Positions 12,001-18,000 of a DNA stretch of 22,624 nt are shown here, in pieces. Positions within the stretch are counted from its first letter, which is position 1. The number at the start of each line of letters is the position of its first letter. Made by a program: the position numbers. Source of the DNA: a virus (lineage: Duplodnaviria; Heunggongvirae; Uroviricota; Caudoviricetes); IMG/VR virus record IMGVR_UViG_2521172589_000007, one strand, 5' to 3'.

Positions 12001-15000
12001 AAAGTCTTCAATTTTCGCACCACGCACCTGCTGGTGAGTGCTCGGTTTATCTACCGGCACCGGCACCTCAGTATCCGGAACATCGGTTATGGTCTGGCGA
12101 TTATCCCCGGTCTGTCTGCGTGCTTCTGCCTGCTGTGCCAGTTCCGGAAGGGAGTCACGAACCATACGAGGGAGTGATTCAGGCTGTGGCATATCAACCC
12201 CACGCTGACTTTCAGGTGCAGGAAGTCCTTCACGCACTGGTGCTGTGGCGTTCTGCTCATCCGGTGACGGCAGACCACGACGAACTGTTTCGCCCTCCAG
12301 TATTTCCCCCTGGCGACCAGCGGCATTTTCCGGTGCCTGCTCACGTCCTTTCTGGAAACTCTGGCCCTTCACCTCACCGGTTGTGGTAAAACGACCACCA
12401 CGTCCGGCCTGATTTTCATCCGGCGTACGCGCCACTTCTCCTGGTAACGGATATCCCTGTCCGGGATGAATATCGCCGGGAGCGGGAAGGCGTGGACGCT
12501 CAGTTAACTCCTGTGCTGTCGGACCGGCATCACCTTCAGCCATCTGGGAACGCACCAGTTCTTCCGCCGTCGGCGCGTTGCCACGGGCAAGACGGGCCTG
12601 CACTTCTGTATCATCCCCCGTAAAACCACGGAATCGCGGGTCACGCATGAACGCGGGCTGTTCCATCGGATCAGCATCAGTAATACGCTCTCCGTCAGCC
12701 AGAGTGTTAATGGTCTCCGTTGCCACATCTTCAGAGAACGCAGGATTATCCATTTCAACGGCATACTGATTCTCGCCTTTCTTCACTACGGACGGTTTCA
12801 GGCCGGTGGCGCTGGCATTGCGGAAAACGTCGCTCCCCAGAGCACTTTTTTCATCCGTGAAATAACGGTTGTCCGGACGCACCTTTTCAATGCGTTCTGC
12901 TGGTCTGGACGCACCACTCTCGTTAATTTCAATACGAACTTCATCCGGATCGCGGAACCGCACCGTCGGGTAAATACTCCCGTCGCCATCATCCGCATTT
13001 TCCGGCTGTGGCTGTGCCTCCGGTCTGGCCTCCCGCTGAGGGCGAAGCACATCACGTATTGCCTGTAACTGCTGCTCTTCAGTATCAGTACGCCCTTCCT
13101 TCTGGCTGAGTTTTCGGTATTCCTCAAGCAGTTCAGGGCGCGGCTTCGCCTTCAGCTCATCCATCACCGCCTGTCGCTTCGCCTGTTCATCCAGTTCATT
13201 CAACAGCTGGCTGGCGGCTTCCCGGCGATGAACGGCAGACGTGTCTCCCTCATGTGCCATATCCGCATCAGCATACTGTTCCAGAAGCTGCTCGCGATTC
13301 ATCCCCTGCATAGATTCACGATGCTGTGCCACCGGATCAACCGGTTCGGGTTGCGGAGCCGATTCGTCCTGAGGAACGCTTTCAGCCTCACGCATGGCTG
13401 CTTCATCTGCCGCCTGACGTTTTCCACGATATCCGGCAGCCGCACCGAATGGTGCCCCCATTGCAGCACCAAGGGCTGCACCTTCGATCGTTGCGTCAGC
13501 CACGCCCTCCCACGGTGACACATCCATTCCGGCGGTCTCACGCAATGCCGTGTTTTCCTGATAGCGTGAATAGCCACCCTGCGCCGCATTAATCGTCCCC
13601 TGTTCCGTGGCATTTCTGACAATGCCGCTTTTAACGGTCTTCGCCGTGCCCCGCATCGCCAGATTAAGCAACTGAGCATCGCCCAGTTTTGCCGCCATGG
13701 CATTCACAGCCAGCAATTCAGGATCGGTTGCCAGTTGCGCACGCACCTCATCGGCAACACGCTCTTTTGCCAGGTCCATTTTCTGGCGGTCAGTAAGCTG
13801 CGCGTGCTGCGGATCTGCATCAATTGACAAAAAGGTCTGCTGAAATTTCGGTGACTTCGCCAGCTCAGAATAATCCGCGTTAAGAACAGCATCTGCCGCT
13901 GCCATTGCACTCCGCCCTTGCGCACTGACAGTGGAATGGGTGATCAGGCCTGCCTGGAAAAAATCCGGCATTTTTTTATCGACAGCTTCGGCTGCCAGTG
14001 CTGTGGCTCTTTCCGGCTGCATCCCTGCCGCGATGTATTTTTTCTCCAGCCCGGCGGTCAGCACTTTTCGCAGAGTGACATCACCCAGCTTTTTAGTCAC
14101 ACCGCCTGCAACCATATCCGGTACAAGCGCACCAATCAGGTTAACCCCTTTCGCTACCCAGACCGCTGAATCATCATATCCTTCAGTCATCGGTGTATTC
14201 AGCGCCCGCTGCGCCCCCGGCGACATCTTGCCAGTCAGCCATTCATCCGAGGCTTTAGCGCCGCCACTGACTGCCTTGCCTGTGACCTTCAGACCTTTAC
14301 CGACAGTATCAGTAACCGCATTTTTTCCATCAGGCAGAGTGTCGATGACCTCATCCGCCCCCTTGCTGCCACCGACAAAAATATCCTGAACAGTTGCTAC
14401 TCCCGGCAGCCCCATACGGCTGAACTCATTTAAAATACGTGCCCCTGTTTTTACCGGGCTCTGAATCATCGCATCACCGAGTCCACGGGCCATTTCCCCT
14501 GTCCCCCGGACGGACTGGGCGACACCTTTCCCCATAGTTGGCAATACATCGCCCAGGCTGAACGACGTGCTGTTGTCCTTCCAGCGATTGGGATCGGAGA
14601 AAAACACATCATAGCTGTCAGTCTCTCCCGGCTGCTGAATGTTCAGGCTGTTGCGGCTCTGGTTGCCAAATTGCGCTTCAGGGCGCTGTTCATCGGAATA
14701 AGCCATACAGACTCCATAAAAAAACCCGGCACAATGACCGGGTATCAGGAAATAGTATTAACGGGAATGGTGAATTACTGCGCGTAATTCTGTTTCAGAC
14801 CACGGATAAACTCAGATGCAGAGGCCGCGCTATCATCCCTGGCCTGTTCCCCCCTGGCCTTTTGAATACGGAGAAAATTCGCATACCCGTGTTCCAGCAA
14901 TTTCTGATTCTGAGGCTCCAGCATTTCTGGCTGACGGGAGGCCACTTCTCTGGCAAATGCCTGCTTATCCGGATCATCACCCGCCCAACTGGTAATCCCT

Positions 15001-18000
15001 TGTTGAATTTTTTGCTGCTGAATTTGCTGCTGATACTGCGGCAGTCCCATCGAAGCATAATATTGCGTCACTGCTCCCTGCGCATCACCGCCGTCCTGTG
15101 CAACCTTTATCGCTACCTGGCTGGCTCCTTTCTGAAGTTGATCCGCAGAAAGTCCCTGCTGCTTCGGCGTGAAATAGCCGAAATTTTTCGAAATTTCCGC
15201 GAATTTACTGCGATCCCTGACAAGCTCAACAGCCTTATCAACAGGCACCGCCAGCACGGTTTGATCATCAGGATGTGCACTGCCGTATTCCGTAACGGGT
15301 TTATGTGCTGTAGAGCCATCACTGTATGTGAGATCAAGGCCGATAAGTATGTACCCTTCCTGCTGTGCCGGTACTATACTGCCAATCCTGGCCTCTTTTA
15401 TCGTCTTTTTCCCGGTTGAATCGGGCATGCCAATACGCTGTTGCAGTTCCGGGCCAAACACCCCGGAAAGGACATCAAGATTCTCCGGCGTATTAAGTGA
15501 AGCGATAGCCCTGTCTGGCTTGTCATCAAAGATTTTTTGCAGGTTGTTCACGGCCTGACCCGCTTTCGCTACATAGCCATCATTCGCCATCAGCCTCAGC
15601 GGATTACCCTCTGACAACTGGCCGTAAAGACGCATTGCTGCATCCCGATCGCCAGCATCCACAGCCTTTCCAAGCGCCGCCATCACAGGCTGATCGCGCG
15701 CCAGCATATCGTTATACTCAAGCCGTCGCTGGTTGTATTTCTGCATCCGGAGTCGCTGCTGCTCCATACCCAGCGACGCATTCCGGTAATTCTGGTTGGC
15801 GTTAAACTCCCTTTCCTGCAGTGCATAATTACGGTCGTCGACTTTGGCTCTGTAATCAAAGTTCCGCTGATCAACGTCTTTATTATGTTCAAACTGCGAC
15901 TGTGCAAATTCAAAATCGCGCTCGTTATTTTTCTGTTGTTGAGCAAGCTGTGCTTCTCGCAAACCAAGTTCCTTACGACGGGTCATTGCCTGGTCAACCG
16001 TGCTGAATCCGGCAAGTAAACCCTGTGCAAATCCGCTCATTCACCACTCCTTAAAACAAAGAACCAGCAATACCACCTATGACAGCACCAATAGCCGCAC
16101 CGGGGAGACCACCAACAGCAGCGCCCATAGCTGCACCCGTACCAATTCCCGTGCCGATATTCTGTTTGTTCTGTGCTTTCTGTTGCGCCGCCATCATCTT
16201 GTTTGACGCCTCAATTTCTTCACGTCGTCTGTCTGCATCACTTATTCCCTGTAATGCCTCACGCCGTGACTGATTCGCAATATCCAGTAAACCGTATCCC
16301 ATATTTCCTCCTTAAGCTGACACCAGTTGTCCGCCAACACTCAGTTGCTGTCTTGCAGGTGCAGAAGCCCCCGTCAGTATGTTCATCTGACGATCCTGCT
16401 CTGCTTCACGGATACCATTTTTCGCGCCAGCAATTGCCAGGGCATTACGTAACCCCAGCGTATTACTGTTGGGATTATCAGGTCGGTTAACGCCATATCG
16501 TGCCATCTGGTTATCCTGCGCCATCTGCGCTGTACGGAGACTGGAAGTGGCAAGGCCGCCCACCCGGGCAAGCTGCGCATTCATCAGGCTGTTGTTCTCG
16601 CCAAGGTCAGCCAGCCTTGCCACGCGGGGCAAATATCTGGTTCGCCAGTCGTCGTATTGTTGGCGTGTCAGCGCTGCTGACGTCTGCCAGTCACCCTGTG
16701 GGCGGGCTGCTCCTGAATAACCAGCCCTTGCGAGAGTTTCGTATTTACCGTACTCCATAATCACAGTCTCCAGTTCTGAGCCTGATGCTGAATGGCATTA
16801 GCGCCGGTGCCAGGTGTTTTAGCACCGCCACTTCCTCCGCTACCGCCAGCCTTATGCATCGCATATGCACCAACCGCACCCAGACCAGCGCCAACAAGAG
16901 AGGCTCGCCCCTGCTGTTTCGTAAACGCAGCCTGTGCGTCCGATTTAGCTTTTGCCAGACTGCTGTCTGCCAGCGAGTTAAAACTCTGTAACGCATCCGC
17001 CTTTTGACCAGAACCGAGAGCAGCAACATCCTGTAGCCCGGCAACATACTTATCTGCCTGCGATACCTGCCCCCGTGTGGTTGTGTCAATCTGCCCGGTT
17101 ACCTGATCACTCTGGTTCGCATTCATTACCGCGTTAAAGCGACCACTGGACGGGTCAACACCGGACTGAGTAAGATTACCCGCCAGCTCCTTCCGTGCTT
17201 CGCCAAACTGTTTCTGATACCCCAGATTTGTGGTGCCAGCAATATTGTCGTACTGCTGCTCACTGTTAAGGTTATCGACCTTTTCCATGAAGTTATCTTC
17301 AGCCGGGCGGAGGATTTTTTGATAATCCTGCCACCCTTTCCAGGCCACTTCTTCCTGTGCTATTTGCGCTGCTGTTGGTTTTACTTTGGTATCACCACCG
17401 CCTTTTTTTCCGCCCATTATGGCTCCTCAGATAACAAAAAACCCTGCCGGGGCAGGGTCAGAATGTGAATTGCAATTGGTTTACACACGATAATGAATAC
17501 AGTGGCAGTCAGACCGCTATCCTGAACACCATGAAGCCATCCTCATCATCCGGCATTCGCTCAAAGCCCAGACGTTTTCCCAGCCGGATAAATCCCCGCC
17601 TTGCCGTGTGGAATTCAGCCCAGCGTCCGCCAGCCAGACGGGTTAATGTCTTCACCTCCGGCAGATAACGCTCAACACCGGCACTCCCCGTACACACACC
17701 CAGCAACACCAGAACATAAGGGATACCGTCGTCACTGAGCACAGAACGCAGCACCAGAAAACCATCCGGTGCCTCAAAGCAAAACGCCTGCTTTTTAAGG
17801 CAGGCGTCTTTAACTTCATTCATAAATTCAGGGTTGCGGGAATTTCTCACAACACGCTGCATATACCGGAGAATTTTGTCGTCCATTCTCTCACCAGAAA
17901 CGAGTGCCATATCGGCTGAACCTCAGCAACCAGTTGACGGGAACTTTCGTCCCCGTCGCGGTTTTCCTACTGCTTACACTGTAAGAACGCCGCAAACTCC

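What the first reader, a model, noticed from the sequence alone, without database searches (positions are those of the whole stretch)
14707..17417. Four tightly coupled small glycine-rich proteins transcribed with the giant ORF: candidate ejection/membrane-insertion module
The 218-aa, ~148-aa, 83-aa and 421-aa genes immediately precede the giant ORF with gaps of 2 to 10 nt and strong RBSs (AAGGAGG, AAGGAG). Two of them end in glycine-zipper hydrophobic segments and the 421-aa protein is Gln/Asn-rich and coiled-coil-like. The set resembles in composition, but not recognisably in sequence, the internal-core or ejection proteins of podoviruses. A five-gene unit of unknown function downstream of lom is a good candidate for an undescribed injected-effector or defence-related system.
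Basis: inference. Interest (0 to 1): 0.7.

Follow-up and report, generated by a model that had tools for sequence, protein, structure and literature searches.

The report
Stx-type podophage DNA-ejection protein cassette
The four small genes are real, always travel together with the giant gene, and most likely encode proteins carried inside the virus particle and shot into the bacterium to build the DNA-entry channel; this is a known kind of machine, here in an unusually many-part form in a medically important phage group.

Summary
The genes exist as described, on the minus strand: 218, 148, 83 and 421 aa, then a 2,783-aa gene. The window is 100% identical to a stx-less, Stx-phage-type prophage of E. 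coli O104:H4.

The set is not undescribed. It equals Sp5 ORF76-80. In Sp5, ORF79 (421 aa) and ORF80 (giant) are essential after DNA packaging, loss of ORF76 cuts lysogenisation, and ORF77/78 are dispensable. The phi24B supplementary proteome detects all four small proteins and the giant one in purified virions, and none is in the cryo-EM model.

Using the 218-aa protein as bait, I found 32 loci across Gammaproteobacteria with the same gene order.

The layout mirrors P22 needle-gp14-gp7-gp20-gp16. One natural protein fuses the 421-aa family's N-terminal part to a gp20-variant segment and a clear P22 gp16 homologue.

Sequence links to gp7 are weak. Links from the 421-aa protein to gp20/gp15 are absent.

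The gap before the giant gene is 68 nt, not 2-10, and holds a terminator-like hairpin whose position is conserved in Aeromonas and Vibrio phages.

Verdict: an expanded podovirus ejection-protein cassette, not a defence or moron system. Interest is moderate.

The parts
17509..17910 (-). 133-aa gene (Sp5 ORF75 homologue, phrog_610). It is the first conserved gene of the cassette and occupies the position of P22 gene 14.
   Evidence: phrog_610 match, E=4e-69. Homologues sit immediately upstream of the 218-aa homologue in Aeromonas and Vibrio phages and in 27 of 32 genomic loci. It does not appear in the part of the phi24B virion proteome table I read. hhalign finds no similarity to P22 gp14.
17440..17459 (-). 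Terminator-like hairpin followed by a T-run, between the 133-aa and 218-aa genes.
   Evidence: It is present in the E. coli lineage only; in the Aeromonas and Vibrio phages these two genes are about 8 nt apart.
16761..17417 (-). 218-aa protein (Sp5 ORF76, phi24B gp51, phrog_611). All-helical, with a conserved GxxxG hydrophobic segment at about residues 172-190. Candidate gp7/gp14-like ejection protein.
   Evidence: Found in phi24B virions: 523 PSMs in total, with a discrete gel peak. The Sp5 deletion still forms plaques but lysogenisation is strongly reduced. The AF2 model is four long helices at low confidence. hhalign against the gp7 family gives E=1.3e-3 over 154 collinear columns at 18% probability. 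All 35 family members hit phrog_8003 'virion structural protein'.
16312..16758 (-). 148-aa protein (Sp5 ORF77, phi24B gp50, phrog_596). Probably a distant paralogue of the 218-aa protein, without a hydrophobic tail.
   Evidence: Found in phi24B virions: 129 PSMs, 83 of them in the batch digest. Dispensable in Sp5. hhalign against the 218-aa family gives E=1e-3. Members cross-hit phrog_8003, phrog_611 and phrog_26383. dN/dS is 0.05.
16051..16302 (-). 83-aa protein (Sp5 ORF78, phrog_594; annotated 'bacteriocin' in some records). A charged N-terminal helix followed by a C-terminal glycine zipper ending in GSLF.
   Evidence: The hydrophobic segment is at residues 53-83. The Pfam Gly-zipper and Bacteriocin_IIc matches are below their cut-offs. 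The C-terminal 19 residues align end-to-end with the C-terminus of the P22 gp7 family (hhalign probability 77%, E=2e-5). Detected at a low level in phi24B virions (13 PSMs) and set aside by those authors as a contaminant. Dispensable in Sp5.
14775..16040 (-). 421-aa protein (Sp5 ORF79, phi24B gp48, phrog_601). Essential, elongated and helical. Candidate gp20/gp15-position tunnel protein.
   Evidence: The Sp5 ORF79 deletion packages DNA but is non-infectious, and is complemented in trans. 1,634 PSMs in phi24B virions, with a discrete band just above the major capsid protein. The AF2 model has pLDDT 83.8: a helix at 12-129, helical bundles, and a small beta domain at 213-266. No PDB relative by sequence or by fold. 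Its N-terminal roughly 350 residues are fused to a gp20-variant segment and to gp16 in P0234.
14717..14743 (-). Terminator-like hairpin (ACCCGG-loop-CCGGGT) plus a T7 run, in the 68-nt gap before the giant ORF.
   Evidence: A GC-rich hairpin plus T-run occupies the same position after the 421-aa homologue in Aeromonas phage phiARM81mr and Vibrio phage D70, with no sequence conservation.
6355..14706 (-). 2,783-aa polyvalent protein (Sp5 ORF80, phi24B gp47, phrog_616), in the gp16 / N4 vRNAP position of the cassette.
   Evidence: Pfam LPD5, LPD1, MuF_C and LPD38 domains. Essential after packaging in Sp5. Abundant in phi24B virions, absent from the cryo-EM model, and proposed by those authors to be an ejection protein. 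Present downstream of the cassette in 26 of 28 loci with enough sequence.
20075..21343 (-). Central tail fibre / needle gene (phi24B gp56 homologue). This is the structural gene that directly precedes the cassette in relatives that lack the lom and hok inserts.
   Evidence: Pfam Phage_Tail_Tip and phrog_496. Synteny in L002 and L003. The phi24B structure.

Best explanation
The 133-, 218-, 148-, 83- and 421-aa genes and the giant gene form the internal-protein (ejection protein, 'ejectosome') cassette of the short-tailed Stx-phage lineage (Sepvirinae and its relatives in Aeromonas, Vibrio, Pseudomonas and Halomonas). It is the positional and functional counterpart of P22 gp14-gp7-gp20-gp16, T7 gp14-gp15-gp16 and N4 gp52-gp51-gp50.

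Shown:
- The proteins are made late.
- The 218-, 148-, 83- and 421-aa proteins and the giant protein are in purified phi24B virions but are not part of the resolved capsid or tail.
- The 421-aa and giant genes are needed for infectivity after DNA packaging.
- The gene set is strictly co-inherited.

Inferred mechanism:
- On receptor binding the central needle leaves and the internal proteins exit through the 22-nm tail.
- The small helical proteins (218 aa and 148 aa, with the 83-aa protein contributing its glycine zipper) insert into the outer membrane.
- The 421-aa protein, with its 118-residue helix, oligomerises into a periplasmic tube.
- The giant polyvalent protein follows. It reaches or crosses the inner membrane and carries enzymatic modules into the cell.
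- The 133-aa protein, which I did not find in the virion table, may act as an assembly chaperone like P22 gp14 (its role in P22 is recalled from my own knowledge, not checked here).
- The hairpin before the giant gene may lower its expression relative to the smaller, multi-copy proteins.
For: 1. Identity of the locus. 186 Stx-type phage records match the region over at least 80% of its length. The gene lengths (133, 218, 148, 83, 421 and 2,793 aa) match Sp5 ORF75-80 one for one.

2. Genetics (PMC5155283).
- The ORF79 and ORF80 deletions give DNA-filled heads and no plaques or lysogens, and both are complemented in trans.
- The ORF76 deletion retains infection but lysogenisation is strongly reduced.

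3. Proteomics (phi24B preprint supplement).
- gp48 (421 aa) has 1,634 PSMs, gp51 (218 aa) 523, gp50 (148 aa) 129, the 83-aa protein 13, and gp47 (giant) 10,962.
- My arithmetic on batch PSMs per residue, normalised to 12 portal copies, gives roughly 37, 32, 48, 6 and 23 copies. The same calculation returns about 6 for the hexameric nozzle and about 22 for the 18-copy spike.
- None of these proteins is in the cryo-EM model. A diffuse density in the tail lumen disappears in emptied particles.

4. Co-occurrence.
- The same order and strand are kept in Aeromonas phiARM81mr and Vibrio D70.
- In the 32 genomic loci, the 148-aa homologue is present in 31 of 31, the 83-aa in 30 of 31, the 421-aa in 31 of 31, and the giant in 26 of 28.

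5. Synteny with P22-like phages: needle, then proteins of about 150, 230, 370-470 and over 600 aa. The size classes fit the gp14/gp15/gp16-like scheme in review PMC8954989.

6. Domain fusion. P0234 (1,386 aa) combines the phrog_601 N-terminal part (E=3e-39), the C-terminal half of gp20-variant phrog_2534 (E=2e-21) and P22 gp16 (36% identity, E=2e-77; precomputed Pfam hit Phage_P22_gp16).

7. Physical character. The proteins are helical without a clear core and carry Gly-zipper/GxxxG segments. This resembles N4 gp52/gp51 as described in PMC13434306.

8. Weak sequence links. The 218-aa family against gp7 gives E=1e-3. The C-terminus of the 83-aa protein against the gp7 C-terminus gives 77% probability.
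Against: - In Sp5, the ORF79 and ORF80 deletion particles did not bind anti-tail-fibre antibody (data not shown in the paper). The authors therefore called these 'tail formation' genes. As I recall, P22 ejection-protein mutants make complete tailed particles, so this phenotype does not fit a pure ejection role.
- The 421-aa family has no detectable sequence or fold similarity to P22 gp20, T7 gp15 or N4/DEV gp51/gp72. Nor does the 133-aa protein resemble gp14, or the giant's N-terminus resemble gp16.
- The link between the 218-aa protein and gp7 has only 18-23% hhalign probability.
- The match between the 83-aa protein and gp7 covers 19 low-complexity residues and could be convergent.
- Release of these proteins from the virion on ejection has not been measured.
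- The 148- and 83-aa genes are dispensable in the laboratory.
- The virion data come from phi24B, a relative, not from this prophage. The nearest Sp5-type 421-aa protein is about 83% identical.
Confidence: 0.65

Rival explanations
1. The 421-aa protein and the giant protein are tail-assembly or tail-completion factors, as the Sp5 authors proposed. The small proteins would be accessory tail or plug components that stay with the tail rather than being ejected.
For: The Sp5 ORF79 and ORF80 deletions package DNA but show no anti-fibre immunogold labelling. phi24B shows an unassigned density in the adaptor lumen.
Against: The phi24B tail is fully accounted for by portal gp72, adaptors gp64 and gp62, nozzle gp57, fibres gp61 and needle gp56. 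None of gp47, gp48, gp50 or gp51 appears in the model despite tens of copies. The lumen density is lost on ejection. The immunogold result is a negative one and is described as 'data not shown'. The fusion of the 421-aa family to P22 gp16 points to ejection proteins.
Confidence: 0.2
2. The cluster is a moron, defence or injected-effector system unrelated to virion function.
For: In E. coli the cluster lies downstream of lom and a Hok/Gef gene and is bracketed by terminator-like hairpins. The giant protein carries polyvalent-protein domains (LPD1, LPD5, LPD38, MuF_C). As I recall the Iyer et al. 2017 description, not checked here, this class is linked with anti-defence functions.
Against: The four small proteins have no PADLOC match beyond low-complexity noise. 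In phages without lom or hok the cassette follows the fibre gene directly. The proteins are in virions. Two of the genes are essential for infectivity. dN/dS is 0.05-0.15. The effector idea can still hold for the giant protein's enzymatic modules, but as cargo of the ejection system rather than as a separate system.
Confidence: 0.05
3. The 83-aa protein is a class II bacteriocin or a lysis/holin-like peptide, as some GenBank records annotate it.
For: Pfam Bacteriocin_IIc match at E=1e-3. Annotated 'bacteriocin' in NC_049917 and KT898134.
Against: The Pfam score is 19.3 bits against a cut-off of 27.1, and the match covers only the Gly-rich segment. No transporter or immunity gene is adjacent. 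The protein is always embedded between the 148- and 421-aa genes. It is detected in virions.
Confidence: 0.03

Closest known systems
P22-like ejection proteins gp7, gp20 and gp16, with gp14 upstream (Lederbergvirus; also Sf6 gp11-13)
   Same: - The gene order after the needle gene is the same: about 150 aa, about 220 aa, about 420-470 aa, then a larger protein.
- Copy numbers are tens per virion. The abstract of PMC8402733 gives about 12, 12 and 30 copies for P22 gp7, gp16 and gp20.
- The proteins are helical with Gly-zipper character.
- The C-terminal ...GSLF tail is shared between gp7 and the 83-aa protein.
- A natural chimera joins the 421-aa family to a gp20-variant segment and to gp16.
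   Different: - Two extra small genes (148 and 83 aa) are present.
- The last member is 2,783 aa with LPD and MuF-C modules, not a 609-aa gp16.
- There is no detectable homology between the 421-aa protein and gp20, between the 133-aa protein and gp14, or between the giant and gp16.
- The Sp5 mutants were scored as lacking fibres.
N4 / Schitoviridae ejection cassette gp52 (150 aa), gp51 (644 aa) and gp50 vRNAP (about 3,500 aa)
   Same: - A giant encapsidated protein is encoded next to smaller membrane-active helical proteins.
- The major capsid protein is N4-gp56-type, and phi24B has T=9 geometry.
- The giant protein is absent from reconstructions.
   Different: - The giant protein here has no RNA polymerase domain.
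- There are five smaller partners rather than two.
- No sequence or fold match was found.
- The phage is temperate and lambdoid in its regulation.
T7 internal core proteins gp14, gp15 and gp16
   Same: The same small, medium, large operon logic applies, with proposed outer-membrane, periplasmic and inner-membrane roles.
   Different: phi24B has no visible core stack, and no homology was detected. The T7 gp16 transglycosylase domain was not found; the phi24B authors suggest that a metallopeptidase-like module plays that part.
Polyvalent proteins of phages and conjugative elements (LPD/MuF class, as I recall the Iyer et al. 2017 description; P1 DarB-like)
   Same: The giant ORF carries LPD1, LPD5, LPD38 and MuF_C domains, and it hits a DarB-like PHROG.
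   Different: This description applies only to the giant gene, not to the four small genes in the finding.

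Membership tests
Podovirus ejection-protein cassette (P22 gp7/20/16, T7 gp14/15/16, N4 gp52/51/50) | The genes are clustered in one operon in the order small, medium, large, next to the tail or needle genes. | tested here: met
   Window order. P22, Sf6, Sortsne and Vibrio 1.061.O layouts. The criterion is as stated in PMC8954989.
Podovirus ejection-protein cassette | The proteins are present in the mature virion at several to tens of copies, but are not part of the capsid shell or tail. | tested here: met
   phi24B supplementary proteome and cryo-EM model. 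This is literature evidence from a close relative, not from this prophage.
Podovirus ejection-protein cassette | The proteins are released from the particle together with the DNA. | not testable with these tools
   There is only an indirect hint: an unassigned tail-lumen density is lost in emptied phi24B particles.
Podovirus ejection-protein cassette | The genes are required for infectivity but not for head assembly or DNA packaging. | tested here: inconclusive
   Met for the 421-aa and giant genes (Sp5 ORF79, ORF80). Partial for the 218-aa gene (ORF76). Not met for the 148- and 83-aa genes, which are dispensable.
Podovirus ejection-protein cassette | Mutant particles are morphologically complete, with the tail present. 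| tested here: not met
   The Sp5 ORF79 and ORF80 deletion particles did not bind anti-fibre antibody. This is a negative immunogold result described as 'data not shown', so it is weak evidence.
P22 gp7 / T7 gp14-like small ejection protein | Sequence homology to the gp7 family (phrog_598). | tested here: inconclusive
   hhalign of the 218-aa family against gp7 gives E=1.3e-3 at 18% probability over 154 collinear columns, and E=9e-4 against P22 gp7 alone. The tail of the 83-aa protein against the gp7 tail gives 77% probability over 19 columns. No PHROG cross-hit to phrog_598.
P22 gp20 / T7 gp15 / N4 gp51-like tunnel protein | Sequence or fold homology. | tested here: not met
Podovirus ejection-protein cassette | Membrane insertion or channel formation by the small and medium proteins. 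| not testable with these tools
   Only sequence features are available: the Gly zipper in the 83-aa protein, the GxxxG segment in the 218-aa protein, and the conserved hydrophobic N-terminus GLLAGF in the 421-aa protein.
Polyvalent protein (LPD/MuF), for the giant ORF only | Several LPD-type domains plus a MuF-type head-association module in one very large phage protein. | tested here: met
   LPD38 (3e-46), LPD5 (4.5e-43), LPD1 (7.6e-23) and MuF_C (1.4e-17).
Class II bacteriocin, for the 83-aa protein | A Pfam Bacteriocin_IIc score above the gathering threshold, a double-glycine leader, and adjacent transporter and immunity genes. | tested here: not met
   19.3 bits against a cut-off of 27.1. 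The neighbours are always the 148- and 421-aa genes.
Known anti-phage defence systems | A match to PADLOC models. | tested here: not met
   No hits apart from two weak low-complexity matches for the 83-aa protein (E of about 2-4e-3).

The most novel reading that the evidence does not exclude
The lineage has a re-engineered ejectosome. The function of a single gp7-like outer-membrane protein would be divided among three proteins: the 218-aa body, its 148-aa paralogue and the 83-aa glycine-zipper tail. A tunnel protein of a fold not seen in solved structures (421 aa, with a 118-residue helix) would conduct a 300-kDa multi-enzyme polyvalent protein as well as DNA. This would make the cassette a dedicated protein-injection machine. 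Its modules would be exchanged with P22-type ejection proteins, and copies would be carried by satellite-like elements (the P0234 chimera).
Probability: 0.3. Interest if true: 0.65.

Novelty: new variant of a known kind. Interest (0 to 1): 0.4.

Why it matters
Short-tailed Stx phages spread Shiga toxin genes among E. coli. How they cross the cell envelope after binding BamA is unknown.

Assigning ORF75-80 as the ejection cassette gives concrete candidates for the trans-envelope channel. It also offers a different reading of two 'tail formation' genes from the only systematic knockout study, and of several virion proteins left unexplained, or set aside as a contaminant, in the first phi24B structure paper.

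It also predicts that the many Stx2a prophages with an IS element in the 421-aa gene cannot make infectious particles. That bears on toxin-gene mobility.

The practical advance over published work is modest. It consists of the functional assignment, the cross-genus co-occurrence, the fusion evidence and the conserved hairpin.

Full report
WHAT IS THERE

All the genes in the finding lie on the minus strand:
- 218 aa at 16761-17417;
- 148 aa at 16312-16758 (150 aa if read from an upstream GTG that overlaps the previous stop codon);
- 83 aa at 16051-16302;
- 421 aa at 14775-16040;
- a 2,783-aa ORF at 6355-14706.

The gaps between the four small genes are 2, 9 and 10 nt. The ribosome-binding sites are GGAG, AAGGAGG and AAGGAG.

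The gap between the 421-aa gene and the giant ORF is 68 nt. It holds a GC-rich hairpin followed by seven T residues (14724-14743). A second terminator-like hairpin (17440-17459) sits just upstream of the 218-aa gene.

So the tight coupling holds within the four genes but not at the junction with the giant ORF.

The 83-aa protein ends in a Gly/Ala hydrophobic zipper. The Gly-rich hydrophobic segment of the 218-aa protein (invariant G176 and G180) lies about 30 residues before the C-terminus.

The 421-aa protein is Gln- and Ala-rich. AlphaFold2 predicts, at good confidence (pLDDT 83.8):
- a disordered hydrophobic N-terminus;
- one continuous helix spanning residues 12-129;
- helical bundles;
- a small beta domain at 213-266.

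WHERE IT COMES FROM

The left 6.4 kb of the window is 100% identical to the E. coli O104:H4 chromosome, and the annotated gene coordinates match across the rest of the window.

The element is a prophage of the short-tailed Stx-phage type (Sepvirinae) without stx. It is inserted next to ynfF, in a truncated gene annotated as a 4Fe-4S binding protein. Its early region is partly decayed.

PGAP calls the four genes 'hypothetical protein' and the giant gene 'LPD38 domain-containing protein'.

The 2.96-kb region is found at 80-95% identity in 186 phage records, nearly all of them Stx phages.

The four proteins belong to PHROGs 611, 596, 594 and 601, and the giant protein to phrog_616. All are labelled 'unknown function'. 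Pfam, NCBIfam and PADLOC have no significant model for the four.

The giant protein carries LPD38, LPD5, LPD1 and MuF_C domains, so it is a polyvalent protein.

WHAT IS ALREADY PUBLISHED

Mondal et al. 2016 (PMC5155283) deleted the unknown genes of Sp5, the Stx2 phage of O157 Sakai, one by one. Their Table S1 lists ORF75 (133 aa), ORF76 (218), ORF77 (148), ORF78 (83), ORF79 (421) and ORF80 (2,793). This matches the window gene for gene.

Their results were as follows:
- The ORF79 and ORF80 deletions gave no plaques and no lysogens, and were complemented in trans.
- Both packaged DNA normally and produced normal-looking heads.
- Neither bound anti-tail-fibre antibody. The authors therefore called them 'tail formation' genes of unknown role.
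- The ORF76 deletion still formed plaques but lysogenised very poorly.
- ORF75, ORF77 and ORF78 were dispensable.

A 2026 preprint on phi24B (10.64898/2026.04.10.717836) combines cryo-EM with virion proteomics. The tail is fully modelled from portal gp72, adaptors gp64 and gp62, nozzle gp57, lateral fibres gp61 and needle gp56. The 2,811-aa gp47 is abundant but invisible, and the authors propose it is an ejection protein.

The four small proteins are not discussed by gene number in the main text. They do appear in the supplementary table:
- gp48 (421 aa): 1,634 PSMs, with a discrete gel peak just above the capsid protein. The authors label it 'Transcription factor?'.
- gp51 (218 aa): 523 PSMs.
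- gp50 (148 aa): 129 PSMs.
- The 83-aa protein: 13 PSMs. The authors dismiss this 'homolog of a bacteriocin' as a contaminant.

I divided batch-digest PSMs by protein length and normalised to 12 portal copies. This gives roughly 37, 32, 48 and 6 copies for the 421-, 218-, 148- and 83-aa proteins, and about 23 for the giant. The same arithmetic returns about 6 for the hexameric nozzle and about 22 for the 18-copy fibre, so it is good to within a few-fold.

A diffuse density in the adaptor lumen disappears in emptied particles.

CO-OCCURRENCE

tblastn with the 421- and 218-aa proteins finds nearly the same numbers of phage records: 289 and 291. In both cases these are the Stx phages plus about 100 Vibrio phages; the 218-aa search also returned Aeromonas phage phiARM81mr.

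In phiARM81mr and in Vibrio phage D70 the order is:
- nozzle;
- central fibre;
- phrog_610 protein (133-aa type);
- phrog_611 protein (218-aa type);
- phrog_596 protein (148-aa type);
- phrog_594 protein (83-aa type);
- phrog_601 protein (421-aa type);
- a protein of 3,066-3,190 aa.

There is no lom or hok in between.

I then used the 218-aa family as bait against one genome per species. This returned 32 loci in Citrobacter, Pectobacterium, Serratia, Brenneria, Yersinia, Aeromonas, Salinivibrio, Oceanisphaera, Vibrio, Pseudomonas, Halomonas, Vreelandella and Halioglobus.

HMM searches of their translated frames gave these counts, always in the same order and on the same strand:

| Gene | Loci with a homologue |
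|---|---|
| 148 aa | 31 of 31 |
| 83 aa | 30 of 31 |
| 421 aa | 31 of 31 |
| 133 aa (upstream) | 27 of 32 |
| Giant ORF | 26 of 28 with enough downstream sequence |

The two exceptions for the giant ORF (L039 and L046) have no large ORF at that position.

dN/dS against a 92.6%-identical phage is 0.05, 0.05, 0.15 and 0.10 for the 218-, 148-, 83- and 421-aa genes. The laboratory-dispensable genes are therefore also constrained.

COMPARISON WITH KNOWN EJECTION CASSETTES

In P22 the needle gene 26 is followed by gene 14 (151 aa), gene 7 (229 aa), gene 20 (471 aa) and gene 16 (609 aa). Sf6, Sortsne, IME279 and a Vibrio podophage have the same arrangement.

The review PMC8954989 defines the cassette as a small operon with three members in this order: a gp14-like protein (about 200-240 aa, outer membrane), a gp15-like protein (431-982 aa, tunnel) and a gp16-like protein (inner membrane). 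It notes that the members are often matched by size and synteny rather than by sequence.

N4 adds the precedent of a giant encapsidated protein (about 3,500 aa) encoded next to two membrane-active helical ejection proteins.

The Stx-phage cassette fits this scheme by position and size. The 218-aa protein takes the gp7 slot, the 421-aa protein the gp20 slot and the giant the gp16/vRNAP slot. The 148- and 83-aa proteins are extra members.

Direct homology tests gave mixed results:
- 218-aa family against the gp7 family: E=1.3e-3 over 154 collinear columns, but only 18% probability. Against P22 gp7 alone, E=9e-4.
- The 148-aa and 218-aa families are linked weakly to each other. hhalign gives E=1e-3 over a shared W..Y..P...YGV(D/N)P pattern, and they share cross-hits to phrog_8003 'virion structural protein', phrog_26383 and phrog_611. 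They are probably distant paralogues.
- The last 19 residues of the 83-aa protein align end-to-end with the C-terminus of the gp7 family, and both end in GSLF (77% probability, E=2e-5). The motif is short and low-complexity, so it could be convergent.
- No signal was found for the 421-aa family against gp20, the 133-aa protein against gp14, or the giant's N-terminus against gp16.
- The 421-aa model has no solved structural relative.

The strongest independent link is a domain fusion. P0234 (1,386 aa) was found in an exhaustive search of 1.84 billion cluster representatives, in which the 421-aa family has only 70 clusters. It consists of:
- the phrog_601 N-terminal part (residues 5-356, E=3e-39);
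- the C-terminal half of phrog_2534, a gp20-variant family that shares its N-terminal half with P22 gp20;
- a clear P22 gp16 homologue (36% identity over 489 residues, E=2e-77; precomputed Pfam hit Phage_P22_gp16).

The 421-aa family's N-terminal module can therefore take the place of the N-terminal half of gp20 in a chimera with gp16.

INTERPRETATION

The best reading (confidence about 0.65) is that these genes encode the internal ejection proteins of this phage lineage.

Shown:
- The proteins are in virions.
- They are absent from the resolved shell and tail.
- The 421-aa and giant genes are essential after packaging.
- The genes are strictly co-inherited.
- The layout is P22-like.
- A fusion to gp16 exists.

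Inferred:
- the order in which the proteins exit;
- the assignment of the small proteins to the outer membrane;
- tunnel formation by the 421-aa protein;
- a chaperone role for the 133-aa protein;
- a stoichiometry-setting role for the hairpin before the giant gene.

That hairpin is notable because a GC-rich stem plus T-run occupies the same position in the E. coli, Aeromonas and Vibrio phages, with no sequence conservation. From general knowledge, in lambdoid Stx phages Q-modified polymerase should read through such sites, so co-transcription remains possible. It is unproven.

The main evidence against this reading is the missing anti-fibre labelling on ORF79 and ORF80 deletion particles in Sp5. 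This keeps a tail-assembly role alive (about 0.2).

The defence/moron reading and the bacteriocin annotation are poorly supported.

NOVELTY AND VERDICT

The genes, their conservation among Stx phages and their knockout phenotypes are published, and their presence in virions is in a supplementary table.

What is added here:
- the explicit assignment of the whole ORF75-80 block as an expanded ejection cassette;
- the demonstration of cross-genus co-occurrence;
- the gp16/gp20 chimera;
- the probable paralogy of the 218- and 148-aa proteins;
- the gp7-like tail of the 83-aa protein;
- the conserved hairpin before the giant gene.

This is a new variant of a known kind of system, of moderate interest (0.4).

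Noticed in passing
window 1-6350: The left 6.4 kb of the window is 100% identical to the E. coli O104:H4 chromosome (2011 outbreak lineage). The prophage carries no stx gene. It abuts ynfF and a truncated gene annotated '4Fe-4S binding protein'. No integrase lies next to the giant gene. Instead there are oppositely oriented early genes (Ant, TraR/DksA, DUF4752, split Ea22 pseudogenes, DUF551), which suggests a rearranged or decaying prophage.
   Followed up: partly
window 17967-18107 (-): A Hok/Gef-family toxin gene sits between lom and the 133-aa gene (RefSeq annotation; 'MokW-like' in NC_049917). Rfam found no Sok-type RNA at gathering score. lom has its own terminator-like hairpin at 18299-18319. 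lom and hok look like inserts that split the fibre genes from the ejection cassette in the E. coli lineage only.
   Followed up: partly
L047 (LC616033.1) about 1840-3103; equivalent to window ~15796, codon 82 of the 421-aa gene: In this Stx2a phage an insertion of about 1.26 kb interrupts the 421-aa gene. It carries two IS3-family-type transposase ORFs (100 and 272 aa). Most of the first 30 Stx2a-converting phage records listed, accessions LC616032 onward, show the same two-piece match and presumably carry the same insertion. Because Sp5 ORF79 is essential, these prophages should be unable to make infectious particles.
   Followed up: partly
L004 10001-14161 (protein P0234): The chimeric ejection protein (421-aa-family N-terminus, gp20-variant segment and P22 gp16) is encoded in an island with an integrase, AlpA-type regulators, Bro-N proteins and a primase (Zn_Ribbon_Prim/Toprim_3/DUF927), and with no capsid or tail genes nearby. 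This looks like a phage satellite carrying its own ejection protein.
   Followed up: no
window 14717-14743; L003 ~16741-16780; L002 ~13190-13220: A GC-rich hairpin plus T-run immediately after the stop codon of the 421-aa homologue is conserved in position, but not in sequence, in E. coli, Aeromonas and Vibrio phages. It may be an attenuator between the multi-copy small proteins and the giant protein.
   Followed up: partly
L046 9944-12998; L039 11266-14724: The Halioglobus MAG locus has three 218/148-type paralogues in a row (210, 174 and 218 aa), no 83-aa homologue and no giant ORF. The Oceanisphaera locus also lacks a giant ORF after the 421-aa homologue. These could be decayed prophages, or lineages that place the large protein elsewhere.
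   Followed up: no
window 19159-20060 (-): The 92-aa and 208-aa genes downstream of the central fibre gene appear by position and size to correspond to phi24B gp55 and gp54. The phi24B authors suggest these sit on the needle tip and may be the real BamA-binding proteins. RefSeq calls the 92-aa product 'outer membrane protein'.
   Followed up: no
L003 5864-7497 and 16670-18529: Aeromonas phage phiARM81mr has an annotated retron-type reverse transcriptase inside its structural gene block. It also has an unannotated gap of about 1.86 kb between the 421-aa homologue and the annotated start of its 3,190-aa gene, which may be mis-started.
   Followed up: no
phi24B preprint supplement: The authors label gp48, the 421-aa homologue, 'Transcription factor?' and treat the 83-aa 'bacteriocin homolog' as a contaminant. 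gp48 gives more batch PSMs (179) than the portal (101) or the spike (167), so it is unlikely to be a contaminant.
   Followed up: yes
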